IMG/VR virus record: IMGVR_UViG_3300030328_002321
Location: 1 to 64,000 of that record
Strand: one strand, 5' to 3'
Length of the DNA: 64,000 nucleotides
Source: a virus
Shown: in pieces, positions 27,004 to 46,838 of the stretch
Numbering within the stretch: position 1 is the stretch's first letter
Layout of the letters: every line of letters begins with the position of its first letter
Position numbers and translations under genes: made by a program
The notes under the pieces: generated by a model
Databases searched by the model: none
What the model saw: only the letters and a program-made list of their open reading frames with translations
Told to the model about the DNA's origin: nothing

Positions 27004-27024
27004 AAGGGACTTTGTCCCTTTTTT
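27004..27024 (+). terminator. Rho-independent terminator
   Basis: AAGGGAC-TTT-GTCCCTT followed by TTTT. Confidence 0.65.
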
Positions 27025-27838: not shown

Positions 27839-28079
27839 TAACTATGAGTAGGGTTTTTGTTAATGTCAATCTTATTTAGTCGTAAACTTAGACATTATTT
27901 TTTGTTTTCATAATACTTGTTCCTACTCATAGTTACCTTTAAAAAGACTCACAAACTCTACTTATCATCACTACTTTGATAGATGATGGGAGTATGATAA
28001 GAGTCTTTTATCCTTTAACAAGGTTTGTGATATACCTTTTTAAAATCACTAATTAATCCATTTAAAACCAATTAAACAA

Positions 28080-28745
28080 ATGGCAAATCAATTAAACAGT
28101 GGTAGTCTTAACACTTTAAAATTAGACGAAACTTTACTATCTCATGTACAAAAAGCAGCTAATGATTCATATCAAGCTTGTTTTGTCGAGAGAATTGACC
28201 GTAATGGTACACCACCAACAGATTCAGATAATGATGAAATAGATGCATTATCTACTCTAAACTATGGTGATTCAAGATTTCAAAGAGGCAGTTTAACTTA
28301 TGTGTATACAAGAATTACACCAGAGAGTATTGCTTTAATGAATATCAAGAATGCTGACGGTTCAAACTTTGACCTTGATGCAGCTGAATTTTCAGCTAAA
28401 ACTACAAAAGCAGGTAAAGTTGTACAAGCGTGTGATTTAAATATCTTAAATCCTACAATTCAAGAATCTACTCATCCAGCAATGGGAATGAGATACAGAG
28501 TTAAGCTTGTAGAAACTCATGAGCCAACACAATGGCAGTTAGACAACAGTGCACATAAAATTAATCCTTCAACTAAAGAAGAATTAACTGTAACTGACCC
28601 AGCAACTGGTGAAGTTAAGAGAATTTATAGTGGACATAAAATGGTATTTGCTACAGCTAACCCTAAACATATGCTTATTGCACATGATAGAGTAGCAGTA
28701 ACTAGTGAATCTAATGTTGTTCAAGAAGAAATGAGTATGATATAA
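28080..28745 (+). CDS. Hypothetical protein (possibly nucleic-acid binding)
   Basis: 221-aa ORF with a structured leader and the AACCAATTAAA motif. Confidence 0.6.
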   Translation: MANQLNSGSLNTLKLDETLLSHVQKAANDSYQACFVERIDRNGTPPTDSDNDEIDALSTLNYGDSRFQRGSLTYVYTRITPESIALMNIKNADGSNFDLDAAEFSAKTTKAGKVVQACDLNILNPTIQESTHPAMGMRYRVKLVETHEPTQWQLDNSAHKINPSTKEELTVTDPATGEVKRIYSGHKMVFATANPKHMLIAHDRVAVTSESNVVQEEMSMI

Positions 28746-28863
28746 CAGATAAGGCAATCTGTGTATTGATATAAAATGAGGGAGGAAAATCTGGTTTGTA
28801 CCTATAGGTGCTGTAATCTCAACCCAGTGCTCCCTTGTTTTGTATTTAATTTAAAATAAGTTT

Positions 28864-29112
28864 ATGGCAAAAAGATATGATATAGAGATACCATCAGTTG
28901 TGGAAAGGACTGTGGTACACGAAGAAATTATTTTTAAAGGAAAGAAAATAATTAGAGAAAGAATTGTAAAGAAAATAAAACTACCTAAAATAATCACGAA
29001 TGATTATAGTTATGAAATGTTAATGGGATTTAAGCCTGGTCTCCCAAGATATGGGAATAAAACTACAGGAATAGAATCAGTTAGTGTCAACATAAATAAT
29101 CATTCGATTTAA
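28864..29112 (+). CDS. Hypothetical protein
   Basis: ORF with an AT-rich leader after a hairpin. Confidence 0.55.
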   Translation: MAKRYDIEIPSVVERTVVHEEIIFKGKKIIRERIVKKIKLPKIITNDYSYEMLMGFKPGLPRYGNKTTGIESVSVNINNHSI

Positions 29113-29134
29113 TTTAGGATTTAAAAATTTAAAC

Positions 29135-29251
29135 ATGGAATTAGATACTACAAGAGAAATAGTTATTAATGTAGCAGAGGTAAAATTATTATGGTTATGC
29201 TTAGGTATAATGTTAGGATATGTGCTCTGCGAAATAAAAAATAGACAATAA
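29135..29251 (+). CDS. Small membrane protein, 38 aa (absent from the ORF track)
   Basis: Manual translation MELDTTREIVINVAEVKLLWLCLGIMLGYVLCEIKNRQ; TAATG coupling to the next gene. Confidence 0.55.
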   Translation: MELDTTREIVINVAEVKLLWLCLGIMLGYVLCEIKNRQ

Positions 29252-29508
29252 TGGGACAAATGAAATGGATAGTTAGTCTTGCAGAAGATGGGAGACTAGA
29301 AGAATACATGAAAGTGTATTATGAAAATTTAGCTAATAACTGTGCTGGCTTTACATATGATGGAAAGTTTTTAAGTATGATGAGAGCTACAGCGGTATTA
29401 AAGTTATTAAAAGAAGCTAGTTCAAAATATAATTCGTATCTTGAAGAGCGAGCTGAACAAGAGCAAGCACAACGAATATATAATAACGAAATAGACGCAA
29501 GAAAATGA
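29251..29508 (+). CDS. Hypothetical protein
   Basis: ORF coupled to polA by an ATGA overlap. Confidence 0.6.
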   Translation: MGQMKWIVSLAEDGRLEEYMKVYYENLANNCAGFTYDGKFLSMMRATAVLKLLKEASSKYNSYLEERAEQEQAQRIYNNEIDARK

Positions 29509-31403
29509 TTTATTTAGTAGATGGGTCAGTAGAAACGATACCTTCTCCACATTATCAGTTGGCAACGATTGATGATGTGGTTAAGTATTGTGAGAACAAA
29601 GAAATACTTGGTGTAGACACGGAGACTGAAGGTTTTGACTTTACTTGTAAAAAGATGATTATGTTTCAAATTGGTGACAATGAAAAACAATTTGTAATTG
29701 ATACTCGTATTATAGGTATTGAACCTTTACGCCAAATACTAGAAAATAAAACAATCACTAAAATATTTCATAACGCAAAGTTTGACTACAAATTTATTAA
29801 ACGATGGTCTAATATAGATTGTGAAGGTATTTATGACACCTTTTTAACTGAGCGTGTTCTTAATTGTGGTAAAGATAAGTATGGATATGGATTGAAAGAT
29901 GTATGCAAAAGATATTTGAATGTAGATTTAAATAAAGATGTGCGTAATCAGTTTATAGGACTTACAGGTCAACCATTTAAAGATGATCAAATTGTGTACG
30001 GTGCAAAAGATGTAGAATATCTTATTAAAATACGTACGCATCAACTACCTCTTATAGATAAGTATAAACTACATAATGTAGTTGAACTTGAAAATAAAGT
30101 AGTATCCTCATTTGCAGATATAGAATACAATGGTTTAGAACTAGATGTAGAACAATGGTCAAAGTTAGAAGCTCTTAACACTGACAATGCTAATAAATTA
30201 GAACAAGATCTAGATACCATGATTAGAAATGATTACAGAGTTAAACACTTTGTATCTAAATATGTGCAAACAGATATGTTTACTCCAATTGAAGAAATTA
30301 GAGATATAGATATAAAATGGACATCACCTAAACAAGTGTTAGAAGTTTTTAAATGTCTTATTCCTAATCTTGACAATGTTAATGGTAAACAAATGTATAA
30401 ATATAGATTTAAGTTTCCTCTTATTGATAAATATGTAAAATATAAGGAAGCTATGAAATTATGTACATCTTATGGTGATGCATTCTTTAAAAATCTAGCA
30501 AGTGATAACAAAATACATACAAACTTTCATCAGATACTAGATACTGGTCGTGTAAGTAGTAGTAAGCCTAACATGCAACAGATACCTGCAGATAATATGT
30601 ATAGAAATTGTTTTACAGCTCCAGATGATTGGAGTTTTGTAAGTTCTGACTACAGTTCACAAGAATTGAATGTAATTGCATTTGGCTCTAAAGATCCTGT
30701 ATGGCTAAAAGCTTTAGAACAAGAACAAGATCTACACTCAACATGTGCAGAGCTAGTTTATGGGGAAGAATGGATTAATGCAGCTGAAGACAATTGCCTT
30801 TATATGAGTAAAAAACAAAAGTGTAATTGTCCTTCACATAAAAAATTAAGAACAAATGTCAAAACTATTAATTTCGGGCTTGCTTATGGGATGGGCCCTA
30901 ATAAGCTTTCTGATACTCTTAACATCAGTTTGGATGCAGCTAAAGAGCTCATCGAAAAGTATTTCCAAGCGTTCCCAGCAATCAAAGGGTTCCTAGATAA
31001 GCTAGGTAACTTTGGTAAGAAATTTGGATATATTAAAACATTTCCTCCATATAATAGGAAAAGATGGTTTAGTAATTGGTATCCAAAGATTTGGAACAAT
31101 AAATCATCTATGATGGAGCTTGGTAGCATCGAGCGTGCTAGTAAGAATACACCTATACAAGGTGCATCTGCAGATATGACTAAACTTGCACTTATACTAA
31201 TGCGAGATTATATAAAAATAACTGATTGTCCTGTAAAACTAGTAATGACAGTGCACGATCAGATAGATACTATATGTAAAAATGATTATATAGATACGTG
31301 GACAGTTAAAATGCAAGAATTGATGGAACTAGCTGCAAATCAAATAGTAACAAACAATTTATTAAAAGCAGAAGTAACAGTTAGTAATTGTTGGGAAAAA
31401 TAA
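29505..31403 (+). CDS. polA: Family A DNA polymerase with 3'-5' exonuclease
   Basis: DTETEG (ExoI), HNAKFD (ExoII), YGAKD (ExoIII), TGRVSS, DYSSQEL (motif A), KTINFGLAYG (motif B), VHDQI (motif C). Confidence 0.97.
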   Translation: MIYLVDGSVETIPSPHYQLATIDDVVKYCENKEILGVDTETEGFDFTCKKMIMFQIGDNEKQFVIDTRIIGIEPLRQILENKTITKIFHNAKFDYKFIKRWSNIDCEGIYDTFLTERVLNCGKDKYGYGLKDVCKRYLNVDLNKDVRNQFIGLTGQPFKDDQIVYGAKDVEYLIKIRTHQLPLIDKYKLHNVVELENKVVSSFADIEYNGLELDVEQWSKLEALNTDNANKLEQDLDTMIRNDYRVKHFVSKYVQTDMFTPIEEIRDIDIKWTSPKQVLEVFKCLIPNLDNVNGKQMYKYRFKFPLIDKYVKYKEAMKLCTSYGDAFFKNLASDNKIHTNFHQILDTGRVSSSKPNMQQIPADNMYRNCFTAPDDWSFVSSDYSSQELNVIAFGSKDPVWLKALEQEQDLHSTCAELVYGEEWINAAEDNCLYMSKKQKCNCPSHKKLRTNVKTINFGLAYGMGPNKLSDTLNISLDAAKELIEKYFQAFPAIKGFLDKLGNFGKKFGYIKTFPPYNRKRWFSNWYPKIWNNKSSMMELGSIERASKNTPIQGASADMTKLALILMRDYIKITDCPVKLVMTVHDQIDTICKNDYIDTWTVKMQELMELAANQIVTNNLLKAEVTVSNCWEK

Positions 31404-31594
31404 GTATGAGTGAGGTCTAATTAATCGGGTGTTTAAGAGACATCCTTAATATTAAATGTTTGCCTCACTCATATTTAACAATACAAGTAATTACGGCGGG
31501 ACGGGCATAAAGAAAATAGAGCTGCACGAAGTGGTAACTAATTCATAACCCGTTAATACTATTGTCCGTCCCGTGGTAAATTAAATTTAAAATT

Positions 31595-31867
31595 ATGAAA
31601 GAAGAAACTAAATATTTTATAGAAGAACTAGAGCGTAGACAGCATCTAGAAGAATTATATAATCAAACTTATATTGAGTTTGATACTTATTTTAAAGATA
31701 GTGGTAAAATAGAAGTAAAAGCTAGAAATTATAGCTACGATGATACAAATTATAGTAAAATTGTTAAAGCTCCTGAAGAATATGTAGAGCCTCCAACACT
31801 TTTAACTATTAAAGAGGAGAATGATATGACTAAATATAAACTTAAAAAAGATAGAGTGGTATGGTAA
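31595..31867 (+). CDS. Hypothetical protein
   Basis: ORF with an A/T-rich leader. Confidence 0.55.
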   Translation: MKEETKYFIEELERRQHLEELYNQTYIEFDTYFKDSGKIEVKARNYSYDDTNYSKIVKAPEEYVEPPTLLTIKEENDMTKYKLKKDRVVW

Positions 31868-32124
31868 AGAAAATTAGACAGACTCAAGTAGAGTCTTTAA
31901 AAAAGACACAAAAAAATATAGGAGAAAAACAACAAACTGTTTACTCCGTAATAAAATCTAAAGGTGGGGCTACTAATAGAATGATTGCCAAGCATTTAGG
32001 ATGGGACATTAATAGAGTCACAGGTAGAGTAACAGAACTTGTAAATATGGGAATGGTTACAACTACAGGAACATTTAAAGATAAAGAAACTAATAGAACA
32101 GTTACATTATGGCAAGTGTTATGA
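31861..32124 (+). CDS. Winged HTH DNA-binding protein
   Basis: ATNRMIAKHLGWDINRVTGRVTELVNMGMV. Confidence 0.75.
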   Translation: MVKKIRQTQVESLKKTQKNIGEKQQTVYSVIKSKGGATNRMIAKHLGWDINRVTGRVTELVNMGMVTTTGTFKDKETNRTVTLWQVL

Positions 32125-33269
32125 GTAAAATAAATGCAATAAGAGATAAAGAACAAAAAGCTGCCTTAAATGCATGGGCTAAACAAAACTTTATTGGTTC
32201 TATAATTGCAGGTACAGGTTTTGGTAAGTCTAGATGTGGTGTATTAGCAGTAGAATATGCACTTAAAGATGGAGGAAATGCTTTGATACTTGTCCCTACT
32301 GTACAATTGCAAGAACAATTTGTAGAAGAATTTGAGAAATGGGGTGTATCTACAGATAATGTAGAAATACTTTGTTATCAAAGTGCATATAAATTAAAGC
32401 GTAAAAGTTACACTATAGTTGTATGTGATGAGATCCATTTAGGTTTATCTCCAGAATATCGTAAATTCTTTGAAAATAATGCTTCTAAAATGCTATTGTG
32501 TATGACTGCAACTCTTCCAGAAGAGCAAGAATACAAAGATATACTTTCTAAAATGGCACCAACAGCTTATAAAATTACATTAGATAGATGTGTAAAATTA
32601 GGATTTGTAAGTCCTTATAAGATTACTTGTATACCGGTTAAATTAACTAGCGAAGAAAAAGAAAATTATAAAAAAGTAAATAATTCTTTTGTTTATAATA
32701 AATATCAGCTGGGACAATTTGACGCTTTTAATGAGGCAAGTAGAATATTAAAAAGTAAAACTGCAACTGGTCCTCAAAAAAGAGCTGCAGTATTATTTTG
32801 GAAAGCTATTAGAGATCGTAAAGCTATTGTAGATTATGCAACAAATAAAATAAAAAAATTTAAGAGCATTTATTATAAAAATACAGATAAGAAAATACTT
32901 GTATTTGGAGGTGCTAATGATTTTACAGATCAATTGTGTGATTCTATAGCTCCTTATGCAATGGCCTATCATTCTAAAAAGACTAAAAAACAAAGAGATG
33001 TGGCCCTTGAATTATTTAAAACAGGAGATATAAATGTACTTTGTTCAACAAAAGCTCTTAATCAAGGTTTTGATGTTCCTAATGCAAATATGGGTATAAT
33101 TTGTGGTATTACAAGCAAAGCTTTATCTATGATACAGCGTGTTGGACGCCTTGTTAGATTTCAGGAAGGCAAAATAGGGGAAATCATAATATTGTATGTT
33201 GCTGATTCTCAGGAAGAAAAGTGGTTAAAGAACGCTACAAAAACATTAAAGAATGTTGTGTGGAAATAA
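32109..33269 (+). CDS. Superfamily 2 helicase (DExH)
   Basis: GTGFGKS, DEIH, TAT, GFDVP and QRVGR motifs. Confidence 0.92.
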   Translation: MASVMSKINAIRDKEQKAALNAWAKQNFIGSIIAGTGFGKSRCGVLAVEYALKDGGNALILVPTVQLQEQFVEEFEKWGVSTDNVEILCYQSAYKLKRKSYTIVVCDEIHLGLSPEYRKFFENNASKMLLCMTATLPEEQEYKDILSKMAPTAYKITLDRCVKLGFVSPYKITCIPVKLTSEEKENYKKVNNSFVYNKYQLGQFDAFNEASRILKSKTATGPQKRAAVLFWKAIRDRKAIVDYATNKIKKFKSIYYKNTDKKILVFGGANDFTDQLCDSIAPYAMAYHSKKTKKQRDVALELFKTGDINVLCSTKALNQGFDVPNANMGIICGITSKALSMIQRVGRLVRFQEGKIGEIIILYVADSQEEKWLKNATKTLKNVVWK

Positions 33270-33281
33270 TTATTTAAAATA

Positions 33282-33313
33282 TTTGTATATAATAACAGAA
33301 TTTATTATATTTG
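33282..33313 (+). promoter_or_regulatory. Bacteroidota sigma-A promoter for the initiator/DnaB cluster
   Basis: TTTG (33282-33285), 20-nt spacer, TATATTTG (33306-33313). Confidence 0.7.
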
Positions 33314-33365
33314 CTTTAGATTTTGAAAATAGTATAATAGAACTTTTTATAACCTTTACTGCCAT

Positions 33366-33917
33366 ATGAATGTTGATATAGATTTTGAAGTGTTAGAGCA
33401 GACAGGAATGTCTGCAGACGATTTTCTATATCTTTATATAATACATAAGGAAAGTTATACTAAATTAATCAATCTTAATCTTAAACCAAATTTAGAGAAG
33501 TTACAAGAAGAAGGATATATTAAGCTAGGCGAAGCACCTGATCAACATTTTATTAGACAAGAGTTTATAGATCTCTTTTCTTCTAATTTTGATCAGATGT
33601 TTGCTGAGCTTATAGGTACATATCCTATGAAAGTAATGACTACTGATAGAGGTATTAGAGTGTTACATGCTAAGGATCCAGATGCTAAGGCCAATGCTAA
33701 ATGTAAAGCAAAGTACAAAAAGATTGTAGGAGAAAAAGTATATAAACATAGACATATAATGAAATGTTTAGATACACAACTTACATTAGAAAAACATAAT
33801 CTTGCATACATGCAAAACTTAGAAACATGGATTAATAACCATACTTGGGAAAAGTATGAAAACTTAGACGAAAATGACACAAAACAAGAAACTAACAGAA
33901 TCACAAGATCCCTTTAA
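33366..33917 (+). CDS. Putative replication initiator / helicase loader
   Basis: N-terminal wHTH-like region; C-terminal ETWINNHTWEKY as in phage replisome organisers; precedes dnaB. Confidence 0.55.
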   Translation: MNVDIDFEVLEQTGMSADDFLYLYIIHKESYTKLINLNLKPNLEKLQEEGYIKLGEAPDQHFIRQEFIDLFSSNFDQMFAELIGTYPMKVMTTDRGIRVLHAKDPDAKANAKCKAKYKKIVGEKVYKHRHIMKCLDTQLTLEKHNLAYMQNLETWINNHTWEKYENLDENDTKQETNRITRSL

Positions 33918-34818
33918 GAACAAAGGGTTTAAAAGCATAAGAAAAGCAATTAGCGCATCGCTACATCAAGTAGCAGATGGAATGAATGGTAAACGTCAAG
34001 TTTATCCTACTAAATGGACAAGACTAAATAAAAATTTATTAGGTGGTTTGCAGCCAGGTAAAATGTATGTAATAGCTGGTCGTCCAGGTGTAGGTAAATC
34101 AGCGTTTAGTAATCAATTAATTTTTGACTTATTAGATAAAAATATAGGTAAAAACCTATTAGTATTATATTGGTCTTTTGAGATGCCGGGTTATCAGCAG
34201 ATACTACGTGCAGGTTCAAAAGGTATAAATAAACAAGTAGGAGAATTATTATCTGTAGGTAAAAAATTAGAAAACGAAGCATACCAAAGATTTAAAGAAG
34301 AAGTTATGAAATATGGGAACTATCCTGTTTATTTTAACAATGTTCCAAGAGATATAGAATTTATTAAAGAAGCTAATGTAGATATAGCTAACAGACGTCC
34401 AGACTCAGTTGTAGTTAATGTGTTTGACCACTCTCGATTAATTTTAAGTAATAGAGATATGGAATTACAAAAACTAAATGATGTGAGTAAAGGGTGTATG
34501 TGGATGCAAGCAAATTTAGGTTGTATTAATATATTATTATCTCAGCTTAATCGTAATATAGAATCTGAACATAGAGCTAAAGCACAATATCAGCCTTTGT
34601 TAACAGATTTATTTGGTGGAGATAGTATTGGTCAAGATGCACATGTAGTAATGATGCTTCAACGGCCTAATGATTTGTATGGTATTACAGATAAATACTG
34701 TAATGAAGATCCAATAGGATTATTAGCTGTACATATAGAGAAGAATCGTGATGGTTTATTAGGTATGATACCTTATCAAGCAGAAATGTCAACATTTACA
34801 ATAAAAGAAAGATTATGA
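33874..34818 (+). CDS. dnaB: DnaB-like replicative helicase (ATPase domain only)
   Basis: AGRPGVGKS, SFEM, LSQLNR, IGQDAHVV and EKNRDG motifs. Confidence 0.92.
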   Translation: MTQNKKLTESQDPFKNKGFKSIRKAISASLHQVADGMNGKRQVYPTKWTRLNKNLLGGLQPGKMYVIAGRPGVGKSAFSNQLIFDLLDKNIGKNLLVLYWSFEMPGYQQILRAGSKGINKQVGELLSVGKKLENEAYQRFKEEVMKYGNYPVYFNNVPRDIEFIKEANVDIANRRPDSVVVNVFDHSRLILSNRDMELQKLNDVSKGCMWMQANLGCINILLSQLNRNIESEHRAKAQYQPLLTDLFGGDSIGQDAHVVMMLQRPNDLYGITDKYCNEDPIGLLAVHIEKNRDGLLGMIPYQAEMSTFTIKERL

Positions 34819-34979
34819 TGTGGAGTAAATACTTATATGAACTATTTGTAAGAGAAAATACAGATGAAAAATTATTAAAAAATATAGAAAAATATGAGCA
34901 AAAGAAACGGGAGGAACAAGATAAAATTAGGAGTCTTAAACGAAATAAATCAGATAGACAAAAGAATGAAACGCTTTAA
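34815..34979 (+). CDS. Small hypothetical protein, 54 aa
   Basis: Manual translation MMWSKYLYELFVRENTDEKLL...; ATGA overlap with dnaB. Confidence 0.4.
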   Translation: MMWSKYLYELFVRENTDEKLLKNIEKYEQKKREEQDKIRSLKRNKSDRQKNETL

Positions 34980-35055
34980 AAACGATGAAGATAAAGTTTC
35001 ACAATTATTGTCTAGAAGAAATACTTTAAGATCTAAATTAAAAACTAAAAAATAA
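34894..35055 (+). CDS. Small basic protein, 53 aa
   Basis: Manual translation MSKRNGRNKIKLGVLNEINQIDKRMKRF...LRSKLKTKK. Confidence 0.45.
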   Translation: MSKRNGRNKIKLGVLNEINQIDKRMKRFKNDEDKVSQLLSRRNTLRSKLKTKK

Positions 35056-35062
35056 TATATAG

Positions 35063-35770: not shown

Positions 35771-35793
35771 TTATTAATTAAAACCAATTTAAC

Positions 35794-36162: not shown

Positions 36163-36182
36163 TAACCAATAAATAAATAATT

Positions 36183-36956: not shown

Positions 36957-37957
36957 TGGCTATTGATCGTAGAGATAGTAACGATCACCTACATACCGAT
37001 GTCATACTTAGTAAAATTACTGAGTATGACATTTTTAGGTATTATTGTCCCAGTTTTAAAATACTTGGTAAGAAATTTAAAAGTGATCTTAGAGAAGATA
37101 AATCACCTACGGTTTCTATAATACCTTACAATGGCAAATTATTGTATAAAGATTTTGGTTCTTCTGATCATACTTTTGATTGTTTTAACTATGTAAAATT
37201 TAAATACAATTGTGATTTCTACTCTGCGCTAAACATTATTGACAATGATTTTAATCTTAACCTCAGTTCTAAAAAAGCTGGTATAAAATTTACTATGGGT
37301 CTTATGGCTTATAGACAAAATAAAGTACCATCTTATACTAAGTCTGAGGTTATTATTAAAAAGAAACGTCGACAATGGACTAGAGATGATGCAAAGTTTT
37401 GGGTTCAATATTTGGTTAGTAAGAAAATATTAACTATGTTTGGAGTCGAACCTATAAGTCATTTCTGGGTAAACAGTACTAGATTTACTTGTAAATCAAT
37501 TACTTACGCTTTTAGATTCAAAAATCGATATAAAATTTATTCTCCTTATGAAGAAACAAATAAGTGGTTAAGCAATACAAAAAAGACAGATGTTCAAGGC
37601 TATGACCAACTCCCGTATAAAGGTGAGAGACTTATCATTACTTCATCTCTTAAAGATGTTATGTGTTTGTATGCAGCAGGCTATAATGCTATTGCGCTAC
37701 AAAGTGAGATGCAAATACCTTCAGAAAAATTAGTAAAAGATTTAAAAGATAGATTTACTATAATAGATATTTTATACGACAATGATTTCGACAAAGTAAC
37801 AAATCCAGGCCAGACAATGGCTAAAAAGATTTGTGACTTATATGGTTTTAATAATATCTGCATACCTGATTATTATCAGTCTAAAGATCCATCAGACTTA
37901 ATTAAACAGATGTGTAGTTTTAATGAACTTAAAAACATATTAAATGAATCGAGATGA
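36956..37957 (+). CDS. dnaG: DNA primase (TOPRIM); start at ATG 36956
   Basis: LREDKSPT...YKDFG (Zn-finger-like remnant), IITSSLKDVM, YDND and KDPSD motifs. Confidence 0.85.
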   Translation: MAIDRRDSNDHLHTDVILSKITEYDIFRYYCPSFKILGKKFKSDLREDKSPTVSIIPYNGKLLYKDFGSSDHTFDCFNYVKFKYNCDFYSALNIIDNDFNLNLSSKKAGIKFTMGLMAYRQNKVPSYTKSEVIIKKKRRQWTRDDAKFWVQYLVSKKILTMFGVEPISHFWVNSTRFTCKSITYAFRFKNRYKIYSPYEETNKWLSNTKKTDVQGYDQLPYKGERLIITSSLKDVMCLYAAGYNAIALQSEMQIPSEKLVKDLKDRFTIIDILYDNDFDKVTNPGQTMAKKICDLYGFNNICIPDYYQSKDPSDLIKQMCSFNELKNILNESR

Positions 37958-39113
37958 AATTATTGAAAAATTTAGAAAACAAAAAGGGTGGTTAAAAAAA
38001 GGAGCGCAATGGTTAGCTGATAAATGGGAAGTAGATATTGCTATTATTAAAGATTGTAAAAAAATTGTATCTTCTGAAGAATGGGTACAAGAACGCATGA
38101 ATAATGATAATGGTCATGAGCTTAGTCAAAGTCAAGCTTTTTCAAAACATTTACTAGATAATGGTTTAACAATGGCAGATGTAAAGTCTGTTAAGTTTTG
38201 GCAAAATTTTAACGGGGAACAACGTTACAGTATAGTAACACACAATCAGTGGCATGAACAGCCCCAAGTTAAAGAAGAATTGCTAAACTATATTAAATCT
38301 ATATCACATAAAGTACCTAAATATAAATGGAAAAAAGCTAAAGATCCTATATGCTATGAAATATCTTTACCAGATATACATTATGGTAAAATTACAGATG
38401 AATCACCTGATGCATTAGAAAAACATTATATGCAAGCTATTGTAGATCTACATAGAAAAGCAGATGGTCTTGATATAGAAAGATTTTTATTGCCAATAGG
38501 TAATGATGGTCTAAATTCAGAAGGTTATTCACGAGCTACAACTAAAGGCACACCTCAACAAGATAGTATGCTATGGCGTCAGTCTTTTAGAGGTTATTGG
38601 CATTTAGTTACCAAAGCTATTGATTATTTAACACAATTTGCCCCGGTAGACGTTGTTGTAGTACAAGGTAATCATGACTTTGAACGTATGTTTTATGCTG
38701 GAGAAGTTTTAGCTGCAGTATATAACAATAATAAAAACGTTACTGTAGATAATGGTTTAGATGCACGTAAATACTACGAGTATGGAACAAATATGATAAT
38801 GTTTACACATGGGGACAAAGAAAAAGCGCAAGAGTTACCACTTTTGATTGCTACAGAACAACCTGAAATGTGGAGTAGATGTAAAATTAGAGAAGTACAC
38901 TGTGGACATAAGCATAAAGAAATGCTTAATGAGTACATGGGTACTAAAGTTAGATTTATACCATCTATTTGTGCTAACGACGCTTGGCATAAAACAAAAG
39001 GTTATGTAGGGACACTTAGATGCGGACAAGCATTTATTTGGAATAAGAATAGAGGTCTGGAAGGGTACCTACAAACAAATATTATGAGCTATGGCTTGGA
39101 AGAGACGAAGTAA
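37944..39113 (+). CDS. Calcineurin-like metallophosphoesterase with an N-terminal extension
   Basis: DIHYG, GND, GNHD, THGD and GHKH motifs. Confidence 0.88.
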   Translation: MNRDEIIEKFRKQKGWLKKGAQWLADKWEVDIAIIKDCKKIVSSEEWVQERMNNDNGHELSQSQAFSKHLLDNGLTMADVKSVKFWQNFNGEQRYSIVTHNQWHEQPQVKEELLNYIKSISHKVPKYKWKKAKDPICYEISLPDIHYGKITDESPDALEKHYMQAIVDLHRKADGLDIERFLLPIGNDGLNSEGYSRATTKGTPQQDSMLWRQSFRGYWHLVTKAIDYLTQFAPVDVVVVQGNHDFERMFYAGEVLAAVYNNNKNVTVDNGLDARKYYEYGTNMIMFTHGDKEKAQELPLLIATEQPEMWSRCKIREVHCGHKHKEMLNEYMGTKVRFIPSICANDAWHKTKGYVGTLRCGQAFIWNKNRGLEGYLQTNIMSYGLEETK

Positions 39114-39531
39114 ATCTAAAACTAAAGTTAAAAATGCTAAAAAGTCTACATATAAAGGTTTAGATTTTAAATCTAACTTAGAATTACACTGTTATAAGAA
39201 ATTAGAAACAGCTAAAATTGAAGTTAAATATGAAGAAGAAACCTTTACAATTTTTCCAGCAACAATTTACCCACAAGCATGCTATGAAGGTACCTCTAAA
39301 AAGCTTTACAATAAAGGTAGTAAGATTAGACCAATTACTTACACACCGGATTTTGTAGATCCAAAAGGTAAATTTATTATAGAAACAAAAGGCTATGCCA
39401 ATGAGTCTTTTCCTTTAAGATGGAAGTTATTTAAAAAACATCTTAAAGATAATAATCATCACTATGTGCTTTTTATGCCAAGAAACAAAAAGCAAGTAGA
39501 TGAGGTTGTAGAATTAATAAAACAGTTATAG
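39091..39531 (+). CDS. PD-(D/E)XK endonuclease (T7 endonuclease I-like resolvase)
   Basis: FKSNLE, YTPDF and IIETKG motifs. Confidence 0.85.
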   Translation: MAWKRRSKSKTKVKNAKKSTYKGLDFKSNLELHCYKKLETAKIEVKYEEETFTIFPATIYPQACYEGTSKKLYNKGSKIRPITYTPDFVDPKGKFIIETKGYANESFPLRWKLFKKHLKDNNHHYVLFMPRNKKQVDEVVELIKQL

Positions 39532-39657
39532 AGTAAACCTAGGTGGTTACCCCTAGACGGGCATTATAGCGAATGATTGACAAAACAACGAGTTATATTC
39601 CGGTTATATGTAAGTCCGCGTTTATTCTATTTATTAACCAATTAAACACTTTAAATT

Positions 39658-39858
39658 ATGGCTGAAACCGTTAGCCCTTGCTGTGGCTATGAATACAGCG
39701 AAGTAACATTTCCATGTGGATGCGAAATGTACCAATGTAACAATCCCAAATGTAACGATCATTTTGATGAGCCTATAGATGACTATGAATATAGACAACA
39801 AAGGCTTGATGAAATTGCAGAAGCACGTGCAGATGAAGCTCGTGATATGGGATACTAA
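39658..39858 (+). CDS. Small Zn-ribbon-like protein
   Basis: SPCCG...CGC...CNNPKC; preceded by the AACCAATTAAA motif. Confidence 0.6.
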   Translation: MAETVSPCCGYEYSEVTFPCGCEMYQCNNPKCNDHFDEPIDDYEYRQQRLDEIAEARADEARDMGY

Positions 39859-39883
39859 TATAAACCAATTAAACACAAATTTT

Positions 39884-42628
39884 ATGAGTATTAAAACTAT
39901 TGATAAGCCTATGCAAGGTAGCGCCGGCATAGCAAAGAAAATTAACAAAGGCGCTGAGAAGATGGTATTTGACATTCTTCAATCTACACAATATTCTATG
40001 CCAATTCAGTCTACTATTAGAGAACTTGTTACCAATGCATGTGACTCTCAGCGAGAAAAAGAAGTAGCAATAGAAATATTGACAGGTAAAAAGAAAGTTG
40101 AAGACTATTACATAGAACGCCATGGTGCGCAGTATGAAGATAGTAATTTTAATAAAAATTATTATAATCTAGCACATTTACAACATGATAAAAATCATAT
40201 TGATTTATTATATACACAAAATGAAGGTGTTGGATATTGTGATATATTTTCAGTTACTGATTATGGTGTAGGTATTGGATCAAGACGTTTAGAAGGTATA
40301 TTGGAACTGGGTTATTCTACGAAAAGAAATACCAGTGAAAATTTTGGTGCCTTTGGTCTTGGAGCAAAAGCTGCATTATCAACCGGTGTAGATTTCTATA
40401 CTATAGAAACTATATACAATGGTATGAGATTTAAATGCAACTGTTATAATTACAAAACTGATTTTATTATACCAGCTTTTAATATAAAAACAGGAATGCA
40501 GAATAAATTTATAACTTTTAGTGACGGTAGTAAAGTATATTATGAGCATTCTAATGAAGTAAATCAAACTACTATATCATTTGGTGTAAAACGTCACAAT
40601 CGTAATAAGTTTGAAGAAGCTATTGAAGAACAATTAATGTATTTTGACAACGTTAATTTTAATATTAAGTATGAGGGTGGTGAGTCTAGAGAAATGCATT
40701 TTAAAACTGAAGTACTTTACAACTCTAAAAACATAATAATTGGTGACAGTTACTATTTTAGTAAACCACATATTGTTCTTGTTAAAGATACAGATGCTTC
40801 TACAGGTATTAACTATGGTTTTATTGATTTTAAAGAACTAGAAATGCAACAAATGTATGGTTGTGTTGCTTTCAAATGTCCTGCTAGACAAGTGGTCACT
40901 AATGAAGACGGTACAGAAACTGTATTACAAGAAGGTGTAGATGTTACTCCATCTCGTGAGAAAGTTATATGGAACGAAGCTACTAAAAAATACATTAAAA
41001 GTGTAATTGAGTCAGCTGCTCAAGAAGCTAGTGATATGGTGGAAGAGCAATTGGAAGAAACTGATTTCTTGAAATGGATTGATAAATGTAGATCTATTAT
41101 ATCTGGGGACTCTGGTGAAAATAAAATCTTAAGTAAGATTGCGCGGATTATTGATAAAGACTTAATTAAACCTAAGTTTGGTCCTGATCCTAGAATTAAA
41201 TATAGTTCTATAACTAAATTATTTGATGGTCTAAAACTTATGAGACCAGTTTTAATAAATAGTACTATGGAACGAGAACCAGTAAAAGATTGGGGTGGAT
41301 TTGATGCTAAACATTTTTATGAAAGAAGAGAACAGTTTAGTAAATATAAAGATTCTTATTTACAACAATTAGATATAGAAGATTCTTATCTATCTAATAA
41401 AGTTTGTACTTACACTTTAGAGGATTTAAACTCTAGATTTAGTGAGTCTATACTTAAAGCTACAGGTGATGCACAAGTTAAACTTTTGAATGAAAAAGCT
41501 AGAGTAACAGCTAAAAGAACAGCAGTTCTTAAGTTTATTGAAGCTTCTGAATGGTATAAAAACTATGATGAAGTAGAAGTACCTGAAGAGTTTATTACAA
41601 AATGTAAAGATATAGAAGAAGAGCAATTAGAAAAAGCTAAATATAATAATTTAACAGCTGCAGAGCGCCGTGAGATAGAAAAGCGGATGGTAGCATATAC
41701 TGTTAGATGGGATGATCGTAAAGATGATAGGCTTACATTAGAAAAAATTGAGCCTAAAGCTAAAGATCTTATGGGTAGCTCTAATAGCATTTATTATTGT
41801 ACTAAAGAAGATGAAGATAAAATGAAAGCTGCTGCTTTATTACTTAAAGAAGTTGTTCCACATTTTAAAGAAGTTTATCCAAATGCTAGTTGGCATGATA
41901 ATGGTAATCAAAGAGAGTCTTCAAGTTATCCTATTTATTGGTATGAACATCCGCCAGTTAGATTTTTACAGTGGCAGCACAAAGGTGAGTATTATGAATG
42001 GGCTAATCCTAAACAAGGATGGGATACACCACAATTAATACGTGTTAGTCAAAATAAGGTTAAGTTTATTACACAAAACCCTAATGTTAAACACATTGAC
42101 GAACTATTTTTACAATTAACAGATAATAACGGATATACTATGGACAATTCACTTATTAAATATTACACAGCACATAAATTAGAGAAAATAAATAAATTTA
42201 GATTTATGCAAGGTTTAAAATGTATACACCCTGAATTACAAGAAGATTATTGTGAACTCATGGATTTGAGGAATAATAATTATTCAGAATGGGAATACAG
42301 AGAGGTACGCAAAATGGCTCCCTCTATAATTAAGCATATGGATAAATTATATGAATTTCAAAAGTTTATAACAGACTGTGATGATTCAGATTTAATAGAA
42401 GAAAAGTCTAAAGAACTGTTTGTTTTGTCAGATATTAGTGAGGCTAAAGCTGCTGATTTGAATATATTAGCTAAGTATGATAATATAGTAGAATTTGCAG
42501 AAGAAGTTAAACCGCTATTAGATGAATTATCGTGTCTTGAGAGTAGAGAATGTGATATGTCTCCTGAACTTGAGAAAGAGGTTAGAGTTTATTTAAGAGC
42601 TAAATCTAGAGAAGTATGGGAAGATTAA
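39884..42628 (+). CDS. rIIA: rIIA-like protein (GHKL/MORC-type ATPase); start at ATG 39884
   Basis: IRELVTNACDS, DYGVG, GAFGLGAKA and VTPSRE motifs. Confidence 0.85.
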   Translation: MSIKTIDKPMQGSAGIAKKINKGAEKMVFDILQSTQYSMPIQSTIRELVTNACDSQREKEVAIEILTGKKKVEDYYIERHGAQYEDSNFNKNYYNLAHLQHDKNHIDLLYTQNEGVGYCDIFSVTDYGVGIGSRRLEGILELGYSTKRNTSENFGAFGLGAKAALSTGVDFYTIETIYNGMRFKCNCYNYKTDFIIPAFNIKTGMQNKFITFSDGSKVYYEHSNEVNQTTISFGVKRHNRNKFEEAIEEQLMYFDNVNFNIKYEGGESREMHFKTEVLYNSKNIIIGDSYYFSKPHIVLVKDTDASTGINYGFIDFKELEMQQMYGCVAFKCPARQVVTNEDGTETVLQEGVDVTPSREKVIWNEATKKYIKSVIESAAQEASDMVEEQLEETDFLKWIDKCRSIISGDSGENKILSKIARIIDKDLIKPKFGPDPRIKYSSITKLFDGLKLMRPVLINSTMEREPVKDWGGFDAKHFYERREQFSKYKDSYLQQLDIEDSYLSNKVCTYTLEDLNSRFSESILKATGDAQVKLLNEKARVTAKRTAVLKFIEASEWYKNYDEVEVPEEFITKCKDIEEEQLEKAKYNNLTAAERREIEKRMVAYTVRWDDRKDDRLTLEKIEPKAKDLMGSSNSIYYCTKEDEDKMKAAALLLKEVVPHFKEVYPNASWHDNGNQRESSSYPIYWYEHPPVRFLQWQHKGEYYEWANPKQGWDTPQLIRVSQNKVKFITQNPNVKHIDELFLQLTDNNGYTMDNSLIKYYTAHKLEKINKFRFMQGLKCIHPELQEDYCELMDLRNNNYSEWEYREVRKMAPSIIKHMDKLYEFQKFITDCDDSDLIEEKSKELFVLSDISEAKAADLNILAKYDNIVEFAEEVKPLLDELSCLESRECDMSPELEKEVRVYLRAKSREVWED

Positions 42629-43479
42629 TAACTAAAGATATAAGAAAAACATTTAAGATTCGTGCTTCTGGACGATCTACAGATTTTATATCTCCTAGTT
42701 TTGGACATGGCTGTTTATATAATTGTTCTTATTGTTATATGAAACGTCATAAAGATAAAGGTTTGTCTATTGCTGTAAATACCGGTGATATATTAACAGC
42801 GATTAATAATCATGTATATTTTACAACAGTAGATAAACCTAATCAAACTCATGCAGAATACACCACTTATGATATTAGCTGTAACGAAGATTTTGCGTTG
42901 CATGCTAAATATCATGATTGGAAAAGAATATTTGAATTCTTTAGAGATCATCCTATAGCTATGGGCAGTTTTGCAACAAAATTTGTAAATCCTGACTTAA
43001 TTAACTTTGATCCTCAAGGTAAAATACGTATTAGATTTAGTTTAATGCCTCAGCATAAAGCAGATCTACACGAACGAGGTACTAGTAAAATAATAGATAG
43101 AATAAAAGCTATTGATGCATTTATTGATGCTGGATACGATGTACATGTTAATTATAGCCCTATTATAGTATATGATGGATGGCTAAAAGATTACAAATAT
43201 GTATTTGATATGATGAACGATTATGTTACATATAAAGATCAAGTTTTAGCAGAATGTATATTTTTAACTCACAATTTTAAGAAGCATGTTATAAATTTAG
43301 GTAGACACCCAGATACAGAAGTAGATTTATGGGTTCTAGACAAACAAGAAATAAAGCGCTCTCAATATGGAGGAGAAAATATTAGATATAAACTAGGAAT
43401 GAAATCTGAATATATAAAACAATTTACAAAATTACATGAAGCAACAATACCGTGGAATACAATACGGTATATTTTTTAA
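42616..43479 (+). CDS. splB: Spore photoproduct lyase-like radical SAM protein
   Basis: GCLYNCSYCY (CxxxCxxC), FATK, RIRFSLMP, RIKAI...GYDVHVNYSPII and FLTHN motifs typical of the SPL family. Confidence 0.8.
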   Translation: MGRLITKDIRKTFKIRASGRSTDFISPSFGHGCLYNCSYCYMKRHKDKGLSIAVNTGDILTAINNHVYFTTVDKPNQTHAEYTTYDISCNEDFALHAKYHDWKRIFEFFRDHPIAMGSFATKFVNPDLINFDPQGKIRIRFSLMPQHKADLHERGTSKIIDRIKAIDAFIDAGYDVHVNYSPIIVYDGWLKDYKYVFDMMNDYVTYKDQVLAECIFLTHNFKKHVINLGRHPDTEVDLWVLDKQEIKRSQYGGENIRYKLGMKSEYIKQFTKLHEATIPWNTIRYIF

Positions 43480-43496
43480 CCAATTAAATTTAAATT

Positions 43497-44663
43497 ATGA
43501 TTACAATTAATGTTATTGAAAACAAAATCTGTGGAAGTTATGGTGATACGCCATTCACAGTTGATTACAGTAAAGAACTGTATGATAGTATGAATGCCCT
43601 AGCAGTAGCTAGTGCTACAGTAGATACAATAGAAGAATACAATGAAATATTGGCTGCATTTGCGCCTTTATGCGTTGTAGATTATACTAAAACTATTGAA
43701 ACACAATGTGAATATATTCACGTTAATAAGGTTACAGGAGAATTCTTTCTTAAGCATAATGGAGTGGTATCAACGATACCTATGCCACAAGCGTTAGTAG
43801 ATAGAATATTTGATTCCTTAGATAAAGATCTAGACTTTATGCCTTTAATTAAAATGTGGACTAGATGGTTGCGTAACCCAATCTTGTGGAGAAAAATGAA
43901 GCAAGGTCATGGGAACGATTTCTGTGAGAGGTTCTTTAATTTTGTAAATATGCAATATGTGCATCCAAAATATAAAGATGAGCTTATAGAACAAGGTCTT
44001 ACTGATGAAGCAGCTTCTAAACGAGCAACAATGTACCAGATGAAAATCACCCATGAGGGATTACTAAATGGTTATAAAGTCTCAAGAGAAGTGCTTCATA
44101 AGTATGACGCAGAAACCGGTGAACAAATTGATCGTTACAAAAGAACGTTTAATGTTGATACTGGTGAAATAGAAGGCAATGGATTACCAGAGCACGTAGA
44201 AGATAGATTGTTTGAACCAGCTGTTATGGGTAACGGTGGTGATGCATTTTTCTGTGAAGGTGCAAACGGTTACGCAAATCCAGGGCATTTTATTAAAGTA
44301 GGTTGTACCCATAGACTTGCAGATTGGAGTCAAGTTAACGTTAATGATACAGTATCTTGCGTTAAAGGTCTTCATATCGGTGGGTTAAAATATATTGCTT
44401 GGTATAGTGGAGAAATTCACAATATCTTTGTAGATCCTATGCATATCGGGGCAGTGCCTTGTGATGAAGACGGAGCTATTAGATGTAAGCAATATTTTGT
44501 TCATTCTTCCCTAGTGGGTGTGAATGGATCTATTTACCACAGCTCTAGCTATGCAGCTATGACAGACGCTGAATGGGATGACATGCGCGCAAAAGCAGTG
44601 CAAGAAAGGTCTGAACGTAAAGCTCAAAGTGACAGGGAAGTTGCAGAGATCAATGCTCTGTAG
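43497..44663 (+). CDS. rIIB: rIIB-like protein
   Basis: WLRNP, ITHEGLLNGYK, SCVKGLHIG and VDPMHIGAVP...RCKQY motifs; follows rIIA. Confidence 0.75.
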   Translation: MITINVIENKICGSYGDTPFTVDYSKELYDSMNALAVASATVDTIEEYNEILAAFAPLCVVDYTKTIETQCEYIHVNKVTGEFFLKHNGVVSTIPMPQALVDRIFDSLDKDLDFMPLIKMWTRWLRNPILWRKMKQGHGNDFCERFFNFVNMQYVHPKYKDELIEQGLTDEAASKRATMYQMKITHEGLLNGYKVSREVLHKYDAETGEQIDRYKRTFNVDTGEIEGNGLPEHVEDRLFEPAVMGNGGDAFFCEGANGYANPGHFIKVGCTHRLADWSQVNVNDTVSCVKGLHIGGLKYIAWYSGEIHNIFVDPMHIGAVPCDEDGAIRCKQYFVHSSLVGVNGSIYHSSSYAAMTDAEWDDMRAKAVQERSERKAQSDREVAEINAL

Positions 44664-44786
44664 CTAGTGTTTAATTGGTAAGATATGAGGGGAGGTTAGT
44701 AATTTAATTAATAACTTTCAGCGGTTATACTTTGTGATAATTACAATTCCTCCCCTTTATATCGTTTACCTTAAAATTTAAAAAAA

Positions 44787-46811: not shown

Positions 46812-46838
46812 AAAAGAGGGGGCAATTCCCCCTTTTTT
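46812..46838. terminator. Bidirectional terminator where the two transcription blocks converge
   Basis: AAAAGAGGGGG-CAATT-CCCCCTTTTTT. Confidence 0.8.

What the first reader, a model, noticed from the sequence alone, without database searches (positions are those of the whole stretch)
27839..44770. Dispersed family of long intergenic hairpins with a shared ATGAG-N1-3-AGG arm and variable interiors
Seen: at least 7 elements of about 70-105 nt lie just after stop codons on the early/replication strand: 27839-27935 (15 bp), 27942-28009 (9 bp), 28768-28846 (17 bp), 31401-31477 (15 bp), 31491-31579 (17 bp, one mismatch), 39528-39630 (11 bp) and 44677-44770. Each has a long closing stem and a variable interior of roughly 45-80 nt, usually with further internal pairing. 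Four share a 5' arm sequence: ATGAGTAGG, ATGAGGGAGG, ATGAGTGAGG, ATGAGGGGAGG. Non-Watson-Crick positions are almost all G-U when read on the plus strand, which implies selection at the RNA level. They lack terminator U-tracts. Inference: a phage-wide RNA signal, either processing sites (like T7 RNase III sites) or fixed scaffolds that release variable small RNAs. A hairpin-promoter role for the virion RNAP (N4-style) is possible but fits the G-U bias less well.
Basis: partly seen in the sequence, partly recalled or inferred. Interest (0 to 1): 0.8.

Follow-up and report, generated by a model that had tools for sequence, protein, structure and literature searches.

The report
Terminator hairpins carrying swappable RNA modules
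The flagged hairpins are real, but they are not one repeat family: they are terminator-like stem-loops between the replication genes of a marine crAss-like phage, and their loops hold different conserved folded-RNA modules that related phages swap in and out.

Summary
All seven hairpins exist and are far beyond chance (4-5 long-stem, big-loop hairpins in 1,358 nt of intergenic DNA against 0.03-0.4 in shuffles, 0 of 200). They are not one family. Each belongs to its own homologous family in related marine crAss-like phages, with compensatory stem changes and G-U pairs that fit only the plus strand, so they act as RNA.

The ATGAG..AGG arm is not conserved in relatives. It reflects a general layout: A-rich then G-rich 5' arm, C-rich then U-rich 3' arm, as in an intrinsic terminator.

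At three gene-end slots, relatives keep the same outer stem but carry either a plain GC hairpin with a T-run or many unrelated large interiors. One interior family occupies four slots. Twister ribozymes sit in equivalent gaps in relatives.

Best reading (about 0.5): terminator-type 3'-end hairpins whose loops carry modular structured RNAs. What the modules do is unknown. One element (31491-31579) is a widespread RNA motif that matched no Rfam family (84 hits, 54 distinct).

The scan noted similar folded-RNA spacers and swappable hairpin modules in other crAss-like phages (e1-5890340, e1-6038761). No expression data exist.

The parts
27839..27935 (+). E1: 15-bp closing stem, U-rich 5' junction, hypervariable central hairpin, conserved 3' junction containing AUAAUAC
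   Evidence: Fold z -4.27. Homologues in L009, L010, L025, L028, L029 and L038/L039 keep the stem through 4 pairs changed on both sides, while the central hairpin differs in each.
27942..28009 (+). E2: A4-GACUC ... GAGUC-U4 closing stem around a long irregular upper hairpin; terminator-like A-tract/U-tract
   Evidence: Fold z -4.16. 11 BLAST hits in relatives. 7 of 25 pairs changed on both sides. 6 of 8 T at the 3' base.
28768..28846 (+). E3: 17-bp closing stem with 4 G-U pairs and a U-rich 3' arm, after the 221-aa gene
   Evidence: Fold z -4.64. The same closing stem (5 of 17 pairs compensatory) encloses two unrelated interiors in relatives. Other relatives have a plain GC hairpin plus T-run at this slot.
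31401..31477 (+). E4 (family A): 16-bp closing stem that includes the DNA polymerase stop codon, inner 8-bp hairpin, invariant 12-nt AU-rich 3' junction
   Evidence: Fold z -6.38. 9-sequence alignment with 21 pairs, 3 changed on both sides. Present or absent after the pol gene among 80 relatives.
31491..31579 (+). E5 (family B): conserved RNA motif with a G-rich/C-rich stem, invariant CAUAAAGG and GUUAAUAC junction strands, and a size-variable inner hairpin
   Evidence: Covariance model R1 finds 84 hits (54 distinct) in viral contigs. 98.7% of cells are paired, 12 of 17 pairs changed on both sides, 0 of 500 shuffles. No Rfam match.
39528..39630 (+). E6: three-way-junction element whose closing stem includes the stop codon of the Holliday-junction resolvase gene; U-rich 3' arm
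   Evidence: Fold z -2.55. Six-sequence alignment with 23 pairs, 10 changed on both sides. Relatives at this slot carry plain terminators, nothing, or other modules.
44677..44770 (+). E7 (family C): closing stem, inner stem and small hairpin with invariant GGUUAUACUUUG, after rIIB
   Evidence: Fold z -4.42. 9 of 26 pairs changed on both sides. The same module lies after rIIB, pol and the HJ resolvase, and upstream of pol, in different phages.
27004..27020 (+). Classical small GC hairpin plus T-run in the same gene block, for comparison
   Evidence: Terminator scan and fold of the gap.
46818..46831 (+). Classical GC hairpin plus T-run at the convergent end of the plus-strand block, for comparison
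   Evidence: Terminator scan, found on both strands.

Best explanation
The elements are gene-end RNA hairpins of the replication (early-type) operon of a marine crAss-like phage. Their closing stems are built like intrinsic terminators: an A-rich then G-rich 5' arm and a C-rich then U-rich 3' arm, starting at or within a few bases of the stop codon. The apical loop has been replaced by one of many independently folding, conserved RNA modules.

Inferred mechanism: the module folds first and brings the two arms together. The G/C stem then closes as the U-rich arm is made. This ends or attenuates the transcript and leaves a nuclease-resistant structured 3' end. Read-through transcripts carry the full A:U-extended stem, which could serve as a double-strand RNase site.

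Shown: the structures, their plus-strand RNA-level conservation, the terminator-like polarity, slot equivalence with plain terminators, and the swapping of modules between slots and phages.

Inferred: termination, 3'-end protection, and any role of the modules.

E5 (family B) fits the terminator layout least. It may be a separate intercistronic RNA of unknown role.
For: 1. Arm polarity in 60 unique intergenic plus-strand big-interior hairpins: 5' outer half 50% A, 5' inner half 38% G, 3' inner half 33% C, 3' outer half 58% T. The block background is 30% T.
2. rIIB-to-exonuclease slot, 80 loci (55 distinct gaps). The same outer arms hold a plain hairpin with loop <=12 nt in 37 loci, a 13-27 nt loop in 12, a >=28 nt interior in 20, and none or weak in 11.
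3. HJ-resolvase slot, 78 evaluable loci: 37 big, 15 simple, 5 mid, 12 none, 9 weak. At least 6 T in 8 nt at the 3' base occurs in 33 of 37 big and 15 of 15 simple hairpins.
4. After the 221-aa gene, many relatives have a GC hairpin plus T-run where the window has E3. The E3 stem is kept around two unrelated interiors.
5. RNA-level selection: compensatory pairs in all seven families. In family B, G-U cells greatly outnumber non-canonical cells, and 0 of 500 shuffles reach the observed values. The plus/minus asymmetry is 34 against 6.
6. Family B starts mostly 3-9 nt after a stop codon and ends mostly 15-17 nt before the next ATG, behind at least 10 different upstream gene families.
7. Bacteroidota use near-canonical intrinsic terminators (PMC13613805, passages).
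Against: - Interiors of 45-80 nt lie far outside the 3-10 nt loops used to define intrinsic terminators (bioRxiv 10.64898/2026.05.29.728758, passages). Efficient termination is therefore uncertain.
- In this window the U-rich tracts are interrupted: 5-6 T of 8, and E1, E4, E5 and E7 reach only 5.
- E5 has no clear U-tract.
- Invariant unpaired nucleotides in the interiors are not needed for termination and point to a further function.
- Twister ribozymes in equivalent gaps of relatives point to cleavage rather than termination.
- By analogy with phi14:2, this block may be transcribed by the injected RNA polymerase, whose termination signals are unknown.
- There are no RNA data.
Confidence: 0.5

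Rival explanations
1. Pure processing sites. The hairpins are cut, by host RNase III in the long closing stems or by self-cleavage of the interior. This divides a polycistronic early transcript into gene-sized mRNAs of different stability. Termination plays no part.
For: - Intercistronic position in the sense orientation.
- Closing stems of 9-17 bp with internal loops and upper stems, resembling T7 RNase III sites (recalled).
- A twister-P1 ribozyme (57 bits, E 4e-10) lies about 45 nt upstream of the homologue of gene 28080-28745 in L061. This is the slot of E1/E2.
- Twister cores also occur in L008, L014, L015, L036, L063 and L066.
- A review notes that ribozymes cluster near each other and near phage genes and may process polycistronic RNAs (PMC6765202, passages).
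- Earlier scan note e1-5890340 reads a cattle-gut crAss-like phage the same way.
Against: - This does not explain the A/G versus C/U arm polarity and the U-rich 3' bases.
- It does not explain why plain GC hairpins with T-runs occupy the same slots.
- No known ribozyme family matches in the window at E <= 5.
- No RNase gene was found among the 20 plus-block proteins scanned.
Confidence: 0.2
2. The interiors are the functional part: small RNAs or sensor domains. One version has them released from mRNA 3' ends and acting in trans, for example as regulators or decoys against host defences. The other version has them bind a protein or ligand and so gate closure of the stem.
For: - Invariant unpaired nucleotides across wide divergence. 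Family B has CAUAAAGG and GUUAAUAC invariant in 54 distinct sequences. Families A, C and E6 also have invariant cores.
- Accessory, patchy distribution with rapid turnover at fixed slots.
- phi14:2 makes abundant stable early intergenic RNAs of unknown role (preprint passages).
Against: - No target or ligand has been identified.
- Family B is linked to no particular downstream gene: 24 downstream protein clusters, 14 of them seen once. This argues against a classical riboswitch.
- Mutual-information analysis found no further structure.
- There is no expression evidence.
Confidence: 0.12
3. Selfish mobile hairpin elements (MITE/REP-like), or neutral loop expansions, that persist in terminator loops because insertion there is harmless. 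They have no function for the phage.
For: - The same module lies at four different slots (family C). A second module, with a T-arm-like segment, lies at two slots.
- Presence/absence among close relatives.
- Earlier scan note e1-2072237 describes a hairpin element with a conserved tip and a new stem at each copy in another phylum.
Against: - Each family is single-copy per genome where tested. R1 gave 1 hit in each of 3 genomes and 0 in 2.
- Stems covary rather than being fixed terminal repeats.
- Interior helices show RNA-type compensation with plus-strand G-U.
- No transposase gene was found among the 20 plus-block proteins scanned.
Confidence: 0.08
4. DNA-level signals. Either a promoter is nested in the loop, so that transcripts starting inside lack the 5' arm and ignore the terminator, or hairpins/cruciforms expose single-stranded template for the injected crAss-type RNA polymerase (N4-style).
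For: - A TA-rich ...UAC/UAU ... UUG string, loosely like the Bacteroidota -7 box, lies just 5' of the 3' arm in families E1, A, B and C. An exact TATATTTG lies in the element that replaces E1 in L008.
- Relatives overlap terminators with TTTG-N20-TATATTTG promoters.
- The phage encodes a 2,022-aa protein with the DFDID motif. The phi14:2 homologue transcribes only single-stranded DNA in vitro, and its early promoters are unknown.
Against: - The motif mostly misses the -7 consensus by an inserted or changed base. The distance to any -33 box varies with the variable hairpins.
- In family B the UUG is part of a covarying stem.
- G-U pairs become A-C mismatches on the template strand, for example 4 of 17 in E3.
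- N4 promoters have 5-7 bp stems and 3-nt loops (recalled).
Confidence: 0.07

Closest known systems
Intrinsic (Rho-independent) terminators, including A-tract/U-tract extended forms
   Same: GC-rich stem with G on the 5' side and C on the 3' side, a U-rich 3' flank mirrored by an A-rich 5' flank, placement just after stop codons in the sense orientation, and plain versions at the same slots in relatives.
   Different: Loops of 45-80 nt (up to about 100 in relatives) hold conserved, independently folded modules, against the usual 3-10 nt. U-tracts are interrupted in this genome. Activity is untested.
Phage intercistronic RNase III sites (T7 R1.1-type) and the lambda sib/tI retroregulator (recalled, not read here)
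   Same: Irregular long hairpins (lower stem, internal loop, upper stem) between early genes. In lambda, a terminator hairpin becomes an RNase III site only in read-through RNA. The same could apply to the A:U-extended stems here.
   Different: There is no evidence of cleavage. The interiors are much larger and belong to many unrelated families. The hosts are Bacteroidota, not enterobacteria.
Clusters of self-cleaving ribozymes in phage and prophage operons (review PMC6765202, passages)
   Same: Small structured RNAs closed by a terminal stem in gaps between phage genes. Twister-P1 ribozymes occupy equivalent gaps in relatives of this phage.
   Different: None of the seven window elements matches a known ribozyme class. 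Self-cleavage is untested.
Abundant early intergenic non-coding RNAs of Cellulophaga crAss-like phage phi14:2 (bioRxiv 10.1101/2020.03.07.982082, passages)
   Same: Non-coding RNA from intergenic parts of the early, replication-side region of a marine crAss-like phage.
   Different: The phi14:2 regions are 0.7-1.7 kb and show no evident sequence or motif similarity to these elements. That phage is in a different family and uses PolB.
Co-transcribed palindromic repeats such as Correia/NEMIS and ERIC elements (recalled)
   Same: Hairpin-forming intergenic inserts that are transcribed with flanking genes and can alter mRNA processing.
   Different: Those are multi-copy elements with fixed terminal inverted repeats. 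Here each family is single-copy per genome and the stems covary.

Membership tests
Intrinsic terminator | GC-rich stem directly followed by a U-rich tract | tested here: inconclusive
   Window: 6 of 8 T for E2, E3 and E6, and 5 of 8 for E1, E4, E5 and E7. Relatives: 33 of 37 big-interior hairpins at the HJ-resolvase slot have >=6 of 8. Arm polarity is terminator-like.
Intrinsic terminator | Short apical loop (about 3-10 nt) | tested here: not met
   Interiors are 45-81 nt in the window. The loop criterion comes (passages).
Intrinsic terminator | Transcripts end in the U-tract | not testable with these tools
   No RNA run holds this phage.
RNase III processing site (T7 type) | About two turns of double-stranded RNA, often with an internal loop at the cut site | tested here: inconclusive
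   Uninterrupted closing stems are 9-17 bp. With the upper stems, the hairpins total about 25-30 bp with internal loops.
RNase III processing site (T7 type) | Cleavage by RNase III | not testable with these tools
   There are no RNA ends available.
N4-type virion-RNAP hairpin promoter | 5-7 bp stem with a 3-nt loop formed on the template strand (recalled definition) | tested here: not met
   Stems are 9-17 bp with 45-81 nt interiors. G-U pairs fit only the non-template/RNA strand.
Known RNA families (Rfam 15), including self-cleaving ribozymes | Match to a covariance model | tested here: not met
   Window 26000-47000 at E <= 5 gave only a chance-level Mu-gpT-DE hit at 33005-33036. Relatives' interiors gave nothing relevant, and the only relevant match in relatives' loci is the twister in L061.
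MITE / REP-like repeat | Many copies per genome with conserved terminal inverted repeats | tested here: not met
   Each element hits only itself in its own genome. R1 gave at most one hit per complete genome. Stems covary.
tRNA or tRNA-like gene | Cloverleaf detected by ARAGORN | tested here: not met
   0 genes in the window and 0 in 11 relatives' loci with T-arm-like interiors.

The most novel reading that the evidence does not exclude
The interiors are functional RNA domains that control whether the terminator stem closes, or that cut the RNA themselves. On this reading, marine crAss-like phages carry a toolbox of swappable 'sensor-in-terminator' riboregulators and/or new self-cleaving ribozyme classes. 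Family B, with two invariant junction strands in 54 distinct sequences, is the prime candidate.
Probability: 0.17. Interest if true: 0.85.

Novelty: new variant of a known kind. Interest (0 to 1): 0.6.

Why it matters
- It gives a concrete evolutionary account of how new structured RNAs enter phage genomes. Terminator loops act as landing sites where modules can be swapped without disturbing the flanking genes.
- It yields several RNA motifs that matched no Rfam family, with strong covariation, which can be tested directly for self-cleavage, protein binding or effects on termination. Family B alone has 84 instances.
- It bears on an open question: how the early genes of crAss-like phages are punctuated and regulated. 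The promoters and terminators of their injected RNA polymerase are still undefined.
- It is a caution for terminator predictors, which cap loop length and would miss this class.

Tried and rejected
- A permissive hairpin scan (stems >=10 bp) gave 287 plus-strand hits and did not discriminate. I replaced it with scored stems.
- tblastn of rIIA against cultured phages found nothing. The pol search found only distant crAss-like hits at 26-30% identity, so there is no cultured close relative.
- The phi14:2 early non-coding regions show tRNA-like pieces and no evident similarity to these elements. This lead went nowhere.
A tighter pattern gave 79 stretches.
- In bacterial genomes the same pattern gave 48 stretches but only 2 model hits, one of them weak. 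I dropped the idea of a host-genome origin for family B.
- A mutual-information search for a pseudoknot in family B found none. I examined a k-turn reading of its outer internal loop by eye and dropped it, because that loop is not conserved.
- A riboswitch reading of family B was rejected because the neighbouring genes vary.
- I considered integron attC-like sites by eye. The core-site consensus as I recall it is absent. No formal test was run.
- I read small peptides in the interiors by eye. The reading frames are not conserved between elements, so I dropped this.
- Host-type promoter search: only one well-formed TTTG-N-TAnnTTTG site lies in an intergenic gap of the plus block, at 33282-33313, and none lies inside the seven elements.
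- ARAGORN and Rfam on relatives' interiors found nothing relevant.
- No RNA holder is listed for this phage.
- Literature. Searches 'crAss-like / intergenic / stem-loop / terminator', 'intrinsic terminator / large loop / phage' (one paper, on general terminator rules) and 'Crassvirales / non-coding RNA / intergenic' listed no description of module-bearing terminators. I judged the listings by title and abstract start only. Supplements were not consulted. The phi14:2 preprint's supplementary promoter tables could bear on the early-promoter question.


Full report
**Context**

The window is bases 1-64000 of an 85,958-bp IMG/VR virus record (31% G+C, rated complete). Three results identify it as a marine crAss-like phage:
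- Its DNA polymerase matches cultured and uncultured crAss-like phages best, at only 26-30% identity.
- A 2,022-aa minus-strand protein (51817-57885) carries DFDID at residue 1355. This is the catalytic motif of the virion RNA polymerase gp66 of Cellulophaga phage phi14:2 (bioRxiv 10.1101/2020.03.07.982082, passages).
- An earlier scan note (e1-6119415) had already called it crAss-like.

One block of about 20 kb (26.7-46.8 kb) lies on the plus strand. It holds replication and recombination genes: pol, two helicases, primase, a Sak4-like protein, exonucleases, an HJ resolvase, and rIIA/rIIB. The rest of the genome is on the minus strand. All seven flagged hairpins lie in gaps of the plus block.

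Yes.
- Each element folds into the stated long closing stem with a large interior. MFE is -19.6 to -30.5 kcal/mol, z is -2.55 to -6.38, and at most 2 of 200 shuffles fold as well.
- In the nine intergenic gaps of the block (1,358 nt), such hairpins number 5, 4 and 4 at three stem-score thresholds. Dinucleotide shuffles average 0.4, 0.05 and 0.03, and 0 of 200 reach the real count.
- Read on the minus strand, the counts fall to 3, 2 and 1.
- Over 81 sources, the strongest intergenic hairpins number 34 on the plus strand and 6 on the minus strand.
- Hairpins in the virion-gene arms of five related complete genomes have long stems with loops of only 3-7 nt. Big-interior hairpins are confined to the replication block.

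**Not one family**

BLAST of the seven elements against the genome and 80 relatives' loci finds each element only once in its own genome. Each of six has its own set of homologues, and E6 has none within the pol-centred loci.

The ATGAG-N-AGG arm occurs four times on the plus strand, always in a 5' arm. In homologues it reads AAGGA.., GTGAG.., ATAAG.. or ATAGAG.., with matching changes in the partner arm.

All seven families show pairs changed on both sides:

| Family | Pairs changed on both sides |
|---|---|
| B (E5) | 5 of 13 in 12 sequences; 12 of 17 in 54 distinct sequences |
| A (E4) | 3 of 21 |
| C (E7) | 9 of 26 |
| E1 | 4 of 15 |
| E6 | 10 of 23 |
| E2 | 7 of 25 |
| E3 | 5 of 17 |

The interiors are not freely variable. 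Each family has invariant junction strands plus one hairpin that varies in sequence and length.

**Terminator-like closing stems**

Three lines of evidence changed my reading.

1. *Arm polarity.* In 60 unique intergenic plus-strand big-interior hairpins, the arms are polar. The 5' outer half is 50% A and the 5' inner half 38% G. The 3' inner half is 33% C and the 3' outer half 58% T, against a block background of 30% T. This is the A-tract / G-stem / C-stem / U-tract layout of an intrinsic terminator. It also explains why several 5' arms look alike.

2. *Slot comparisons.*
   - Between rIIB and the exonuclease gene (80 loci, 55 distinct gaps), the same outer arms enclose different contents. 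37 loci have a plain GC hairpin with a loop of at most 12 nt. 12 loci have a 13-27 nt loop. 20 loci have an interior of 28-78 nt, of more than ten unrelated kinds. 11 loci have nothing convincing.
   - After the HJ-resolvase gene (78 evaluable loci), there are 37 big, 15 simple, 5 intermediate, 12 empty and 9 weak. At least 6 T in 8 nt lie at the 3' base of 33 of 37 big and 15 of 15 simple hairpins.
   - After the 221-aa gene, many relatives have a GC hairpin plus T-run where the window has E3. The E3 stem itself encloses two unrelated interiors in close relatives.

3. *U-rich 3' arms.* The window's own elements do have U-rich 3' arms (6 of 8 T for E2, E3 and E6; 5 of 8 for the others).

Classical small terminators also exist in the block, at 27004-27020 and 46818-46831. 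Bacteroidota are reported to use near-canonical intrinsic terminators (PMC13613805, passages).

**Modules move**

- Family C (E7) lies after rIIB in the window and 3 relatives. It lies after pol in 5 loci and upstream of pol in 3. Its motif appears in 24 of the 78 HJ-resolvase-slot loci.
- A second module, with a T-arm-like segment, occurs at both the rIIB and HJ slots.
- After pol, relatives have family A, B, C or D, combinations of these, or nothing.
- Each family is single-copy per genome where tested, so these are not ordinary repeats.

**Family B (E5)**

- A covariance model found 22 plus-strand hits in the first 81 sources, all next to pol.
- After pattern scans of IMG/VR, it found 84 hits, 54 of them distinct.
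- 98.7% of cells are paired, and 0 of 500 shuffles reach the observed values. Sliding the partners drops pairing to 40-56%.
- Two junction strands, CAUAAAGG and GUUAAUAC, are invariant.
- It follows at least 10 upstream gene families and precedes 24 downstream clusters. It starts mostly 3-9 nt after the stop codon and ends mostly 15-17 nt before the next ATG.
- It is essentially absent from bacterial genomes: 2 model hits, one weak, among 48 pattern matches.
- It is not in Rfam.
- It lacks a clear U-tract, so it may be a different kind of intercistronic RNA.

**Processing evidence from relatives**

- A twister-P1 ribozyme (57 bits, below Rfam's gathering score of 67.2, E 4e-10) lies about 45 nt upstream of the L061 homologue of gene 28080-28745 (29% identity, E 2e-18). 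This is where the window has E1/E2.
- The same twister core, with the same flanks, occurs in six more loci. The window has none.
- A review notes that bacterial ribozymes cluster near each other and near phage genes, and that they may process polycistronic RNAs (PMC6765202, passages).
- This keeps a cleavage role alive. It fits a sib-like scheme in which only read-through RNA forms the full A:U-extended stem.

**What is not known**

No RNA run holds this phage. Termination, cleavage and small-RNA release are therefore all untested. If this block is transcribed by the injected polymerase, as in phi14:2, the relevant termination rules are unknown. The purpose of the invariant interior nucleotides remains unexplained.

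**Verdict**

- The elements are best described as module-bearing, terminator-type gene-end hairpins acting as plus-strand RNA (confidence about 0.5).
- Rivals are pure processing sites (0.2), functional small RNAs or sensors (0.12), selfish inserts (0.08) and DNA-level signals (0.07).
- The finding is a new variant of a known kind. It adds several uncatalogued RNA motifs and extends earlier scan notes on folded-RNA spacers in other crAss-like phages (e1-5890340, e1-6038761, e1-6038766).

Noticed in passing
window 28021-28050: A conserved hairpin lies in the 5' leader of gene 28080-28745. Five of its 6 stem pairs changed on both sides across 16 relatives. Its loop holds an invariant CCU(U) that could pair with an invariant upstream AAGG, giving a possible H-type pseudoknot. 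This resembles an autoregulatory leader, as recalled for T4 gene 32. The 221-aa protein has no Pfam or PHROG match.
   Followed up: partly
L061:3209-3260; also L008 ~2900-2975, L014, L015, L036, L063, L066: Minimal type-P1 twister ribozymes occur in intergenic gaps of the replication block of relatives. Each sits at the 3' end of a larger conserved non-coding stretch that contains the same GGUUAUACUUUG string as family C.
   Followed up: partly
window 51817-57885 (-): A 2,022-aa protein has DFDID at residue 1355, the catalytic motif of crAss-type virion RNA polymerase. It is flanked by 1,473-aa and 1,373-aa ORFs.
   Followed up: partly
It could pair with the leaders at 39637 and 39864.
   Followed up: partly
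window 33282-33313 (+): This is the only well-formed Bacteroidota-type promoter (TTTG, 20 nt, TATATTTG) in an intergenic gap of the plus block. It lies between the helicase gene and ORF 33366-33917.
   Followed up: no
L040, L057, L062, L063, L046, L037 and others, just after the homologue of gene 28080-28745: Overlapping terminator-promoter units. The -33 TTTG lies in the terminator loop, and a TATATTTG -7 box follows the T-run directly.
   Followed up: no
window 15248-15335 and 42759-42840: The two highest-scoring long stems in the genome (22 bp and 21 bp, with interiors of 44 and 40 nt) lie inside ORFs. One is in a minus-strand gene and the other in the radical-SAM gene between rIIA and rIIB.
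   Followed up: no
window 28747-28762: A small hairpin (CAGAUAAGGCAAUCUG) directly after the stop codon of gene 28080-28745 is conserved in many relatives. It sits upstream of whichever terminator or module follows.
   Followed up: no
L125, L219, L242, L278 (other viral contigs): In another phage group, family B sits directly after a 546-aa gene ending in a GroEL-like Gly-Met-rich tail.
   Followed up: no
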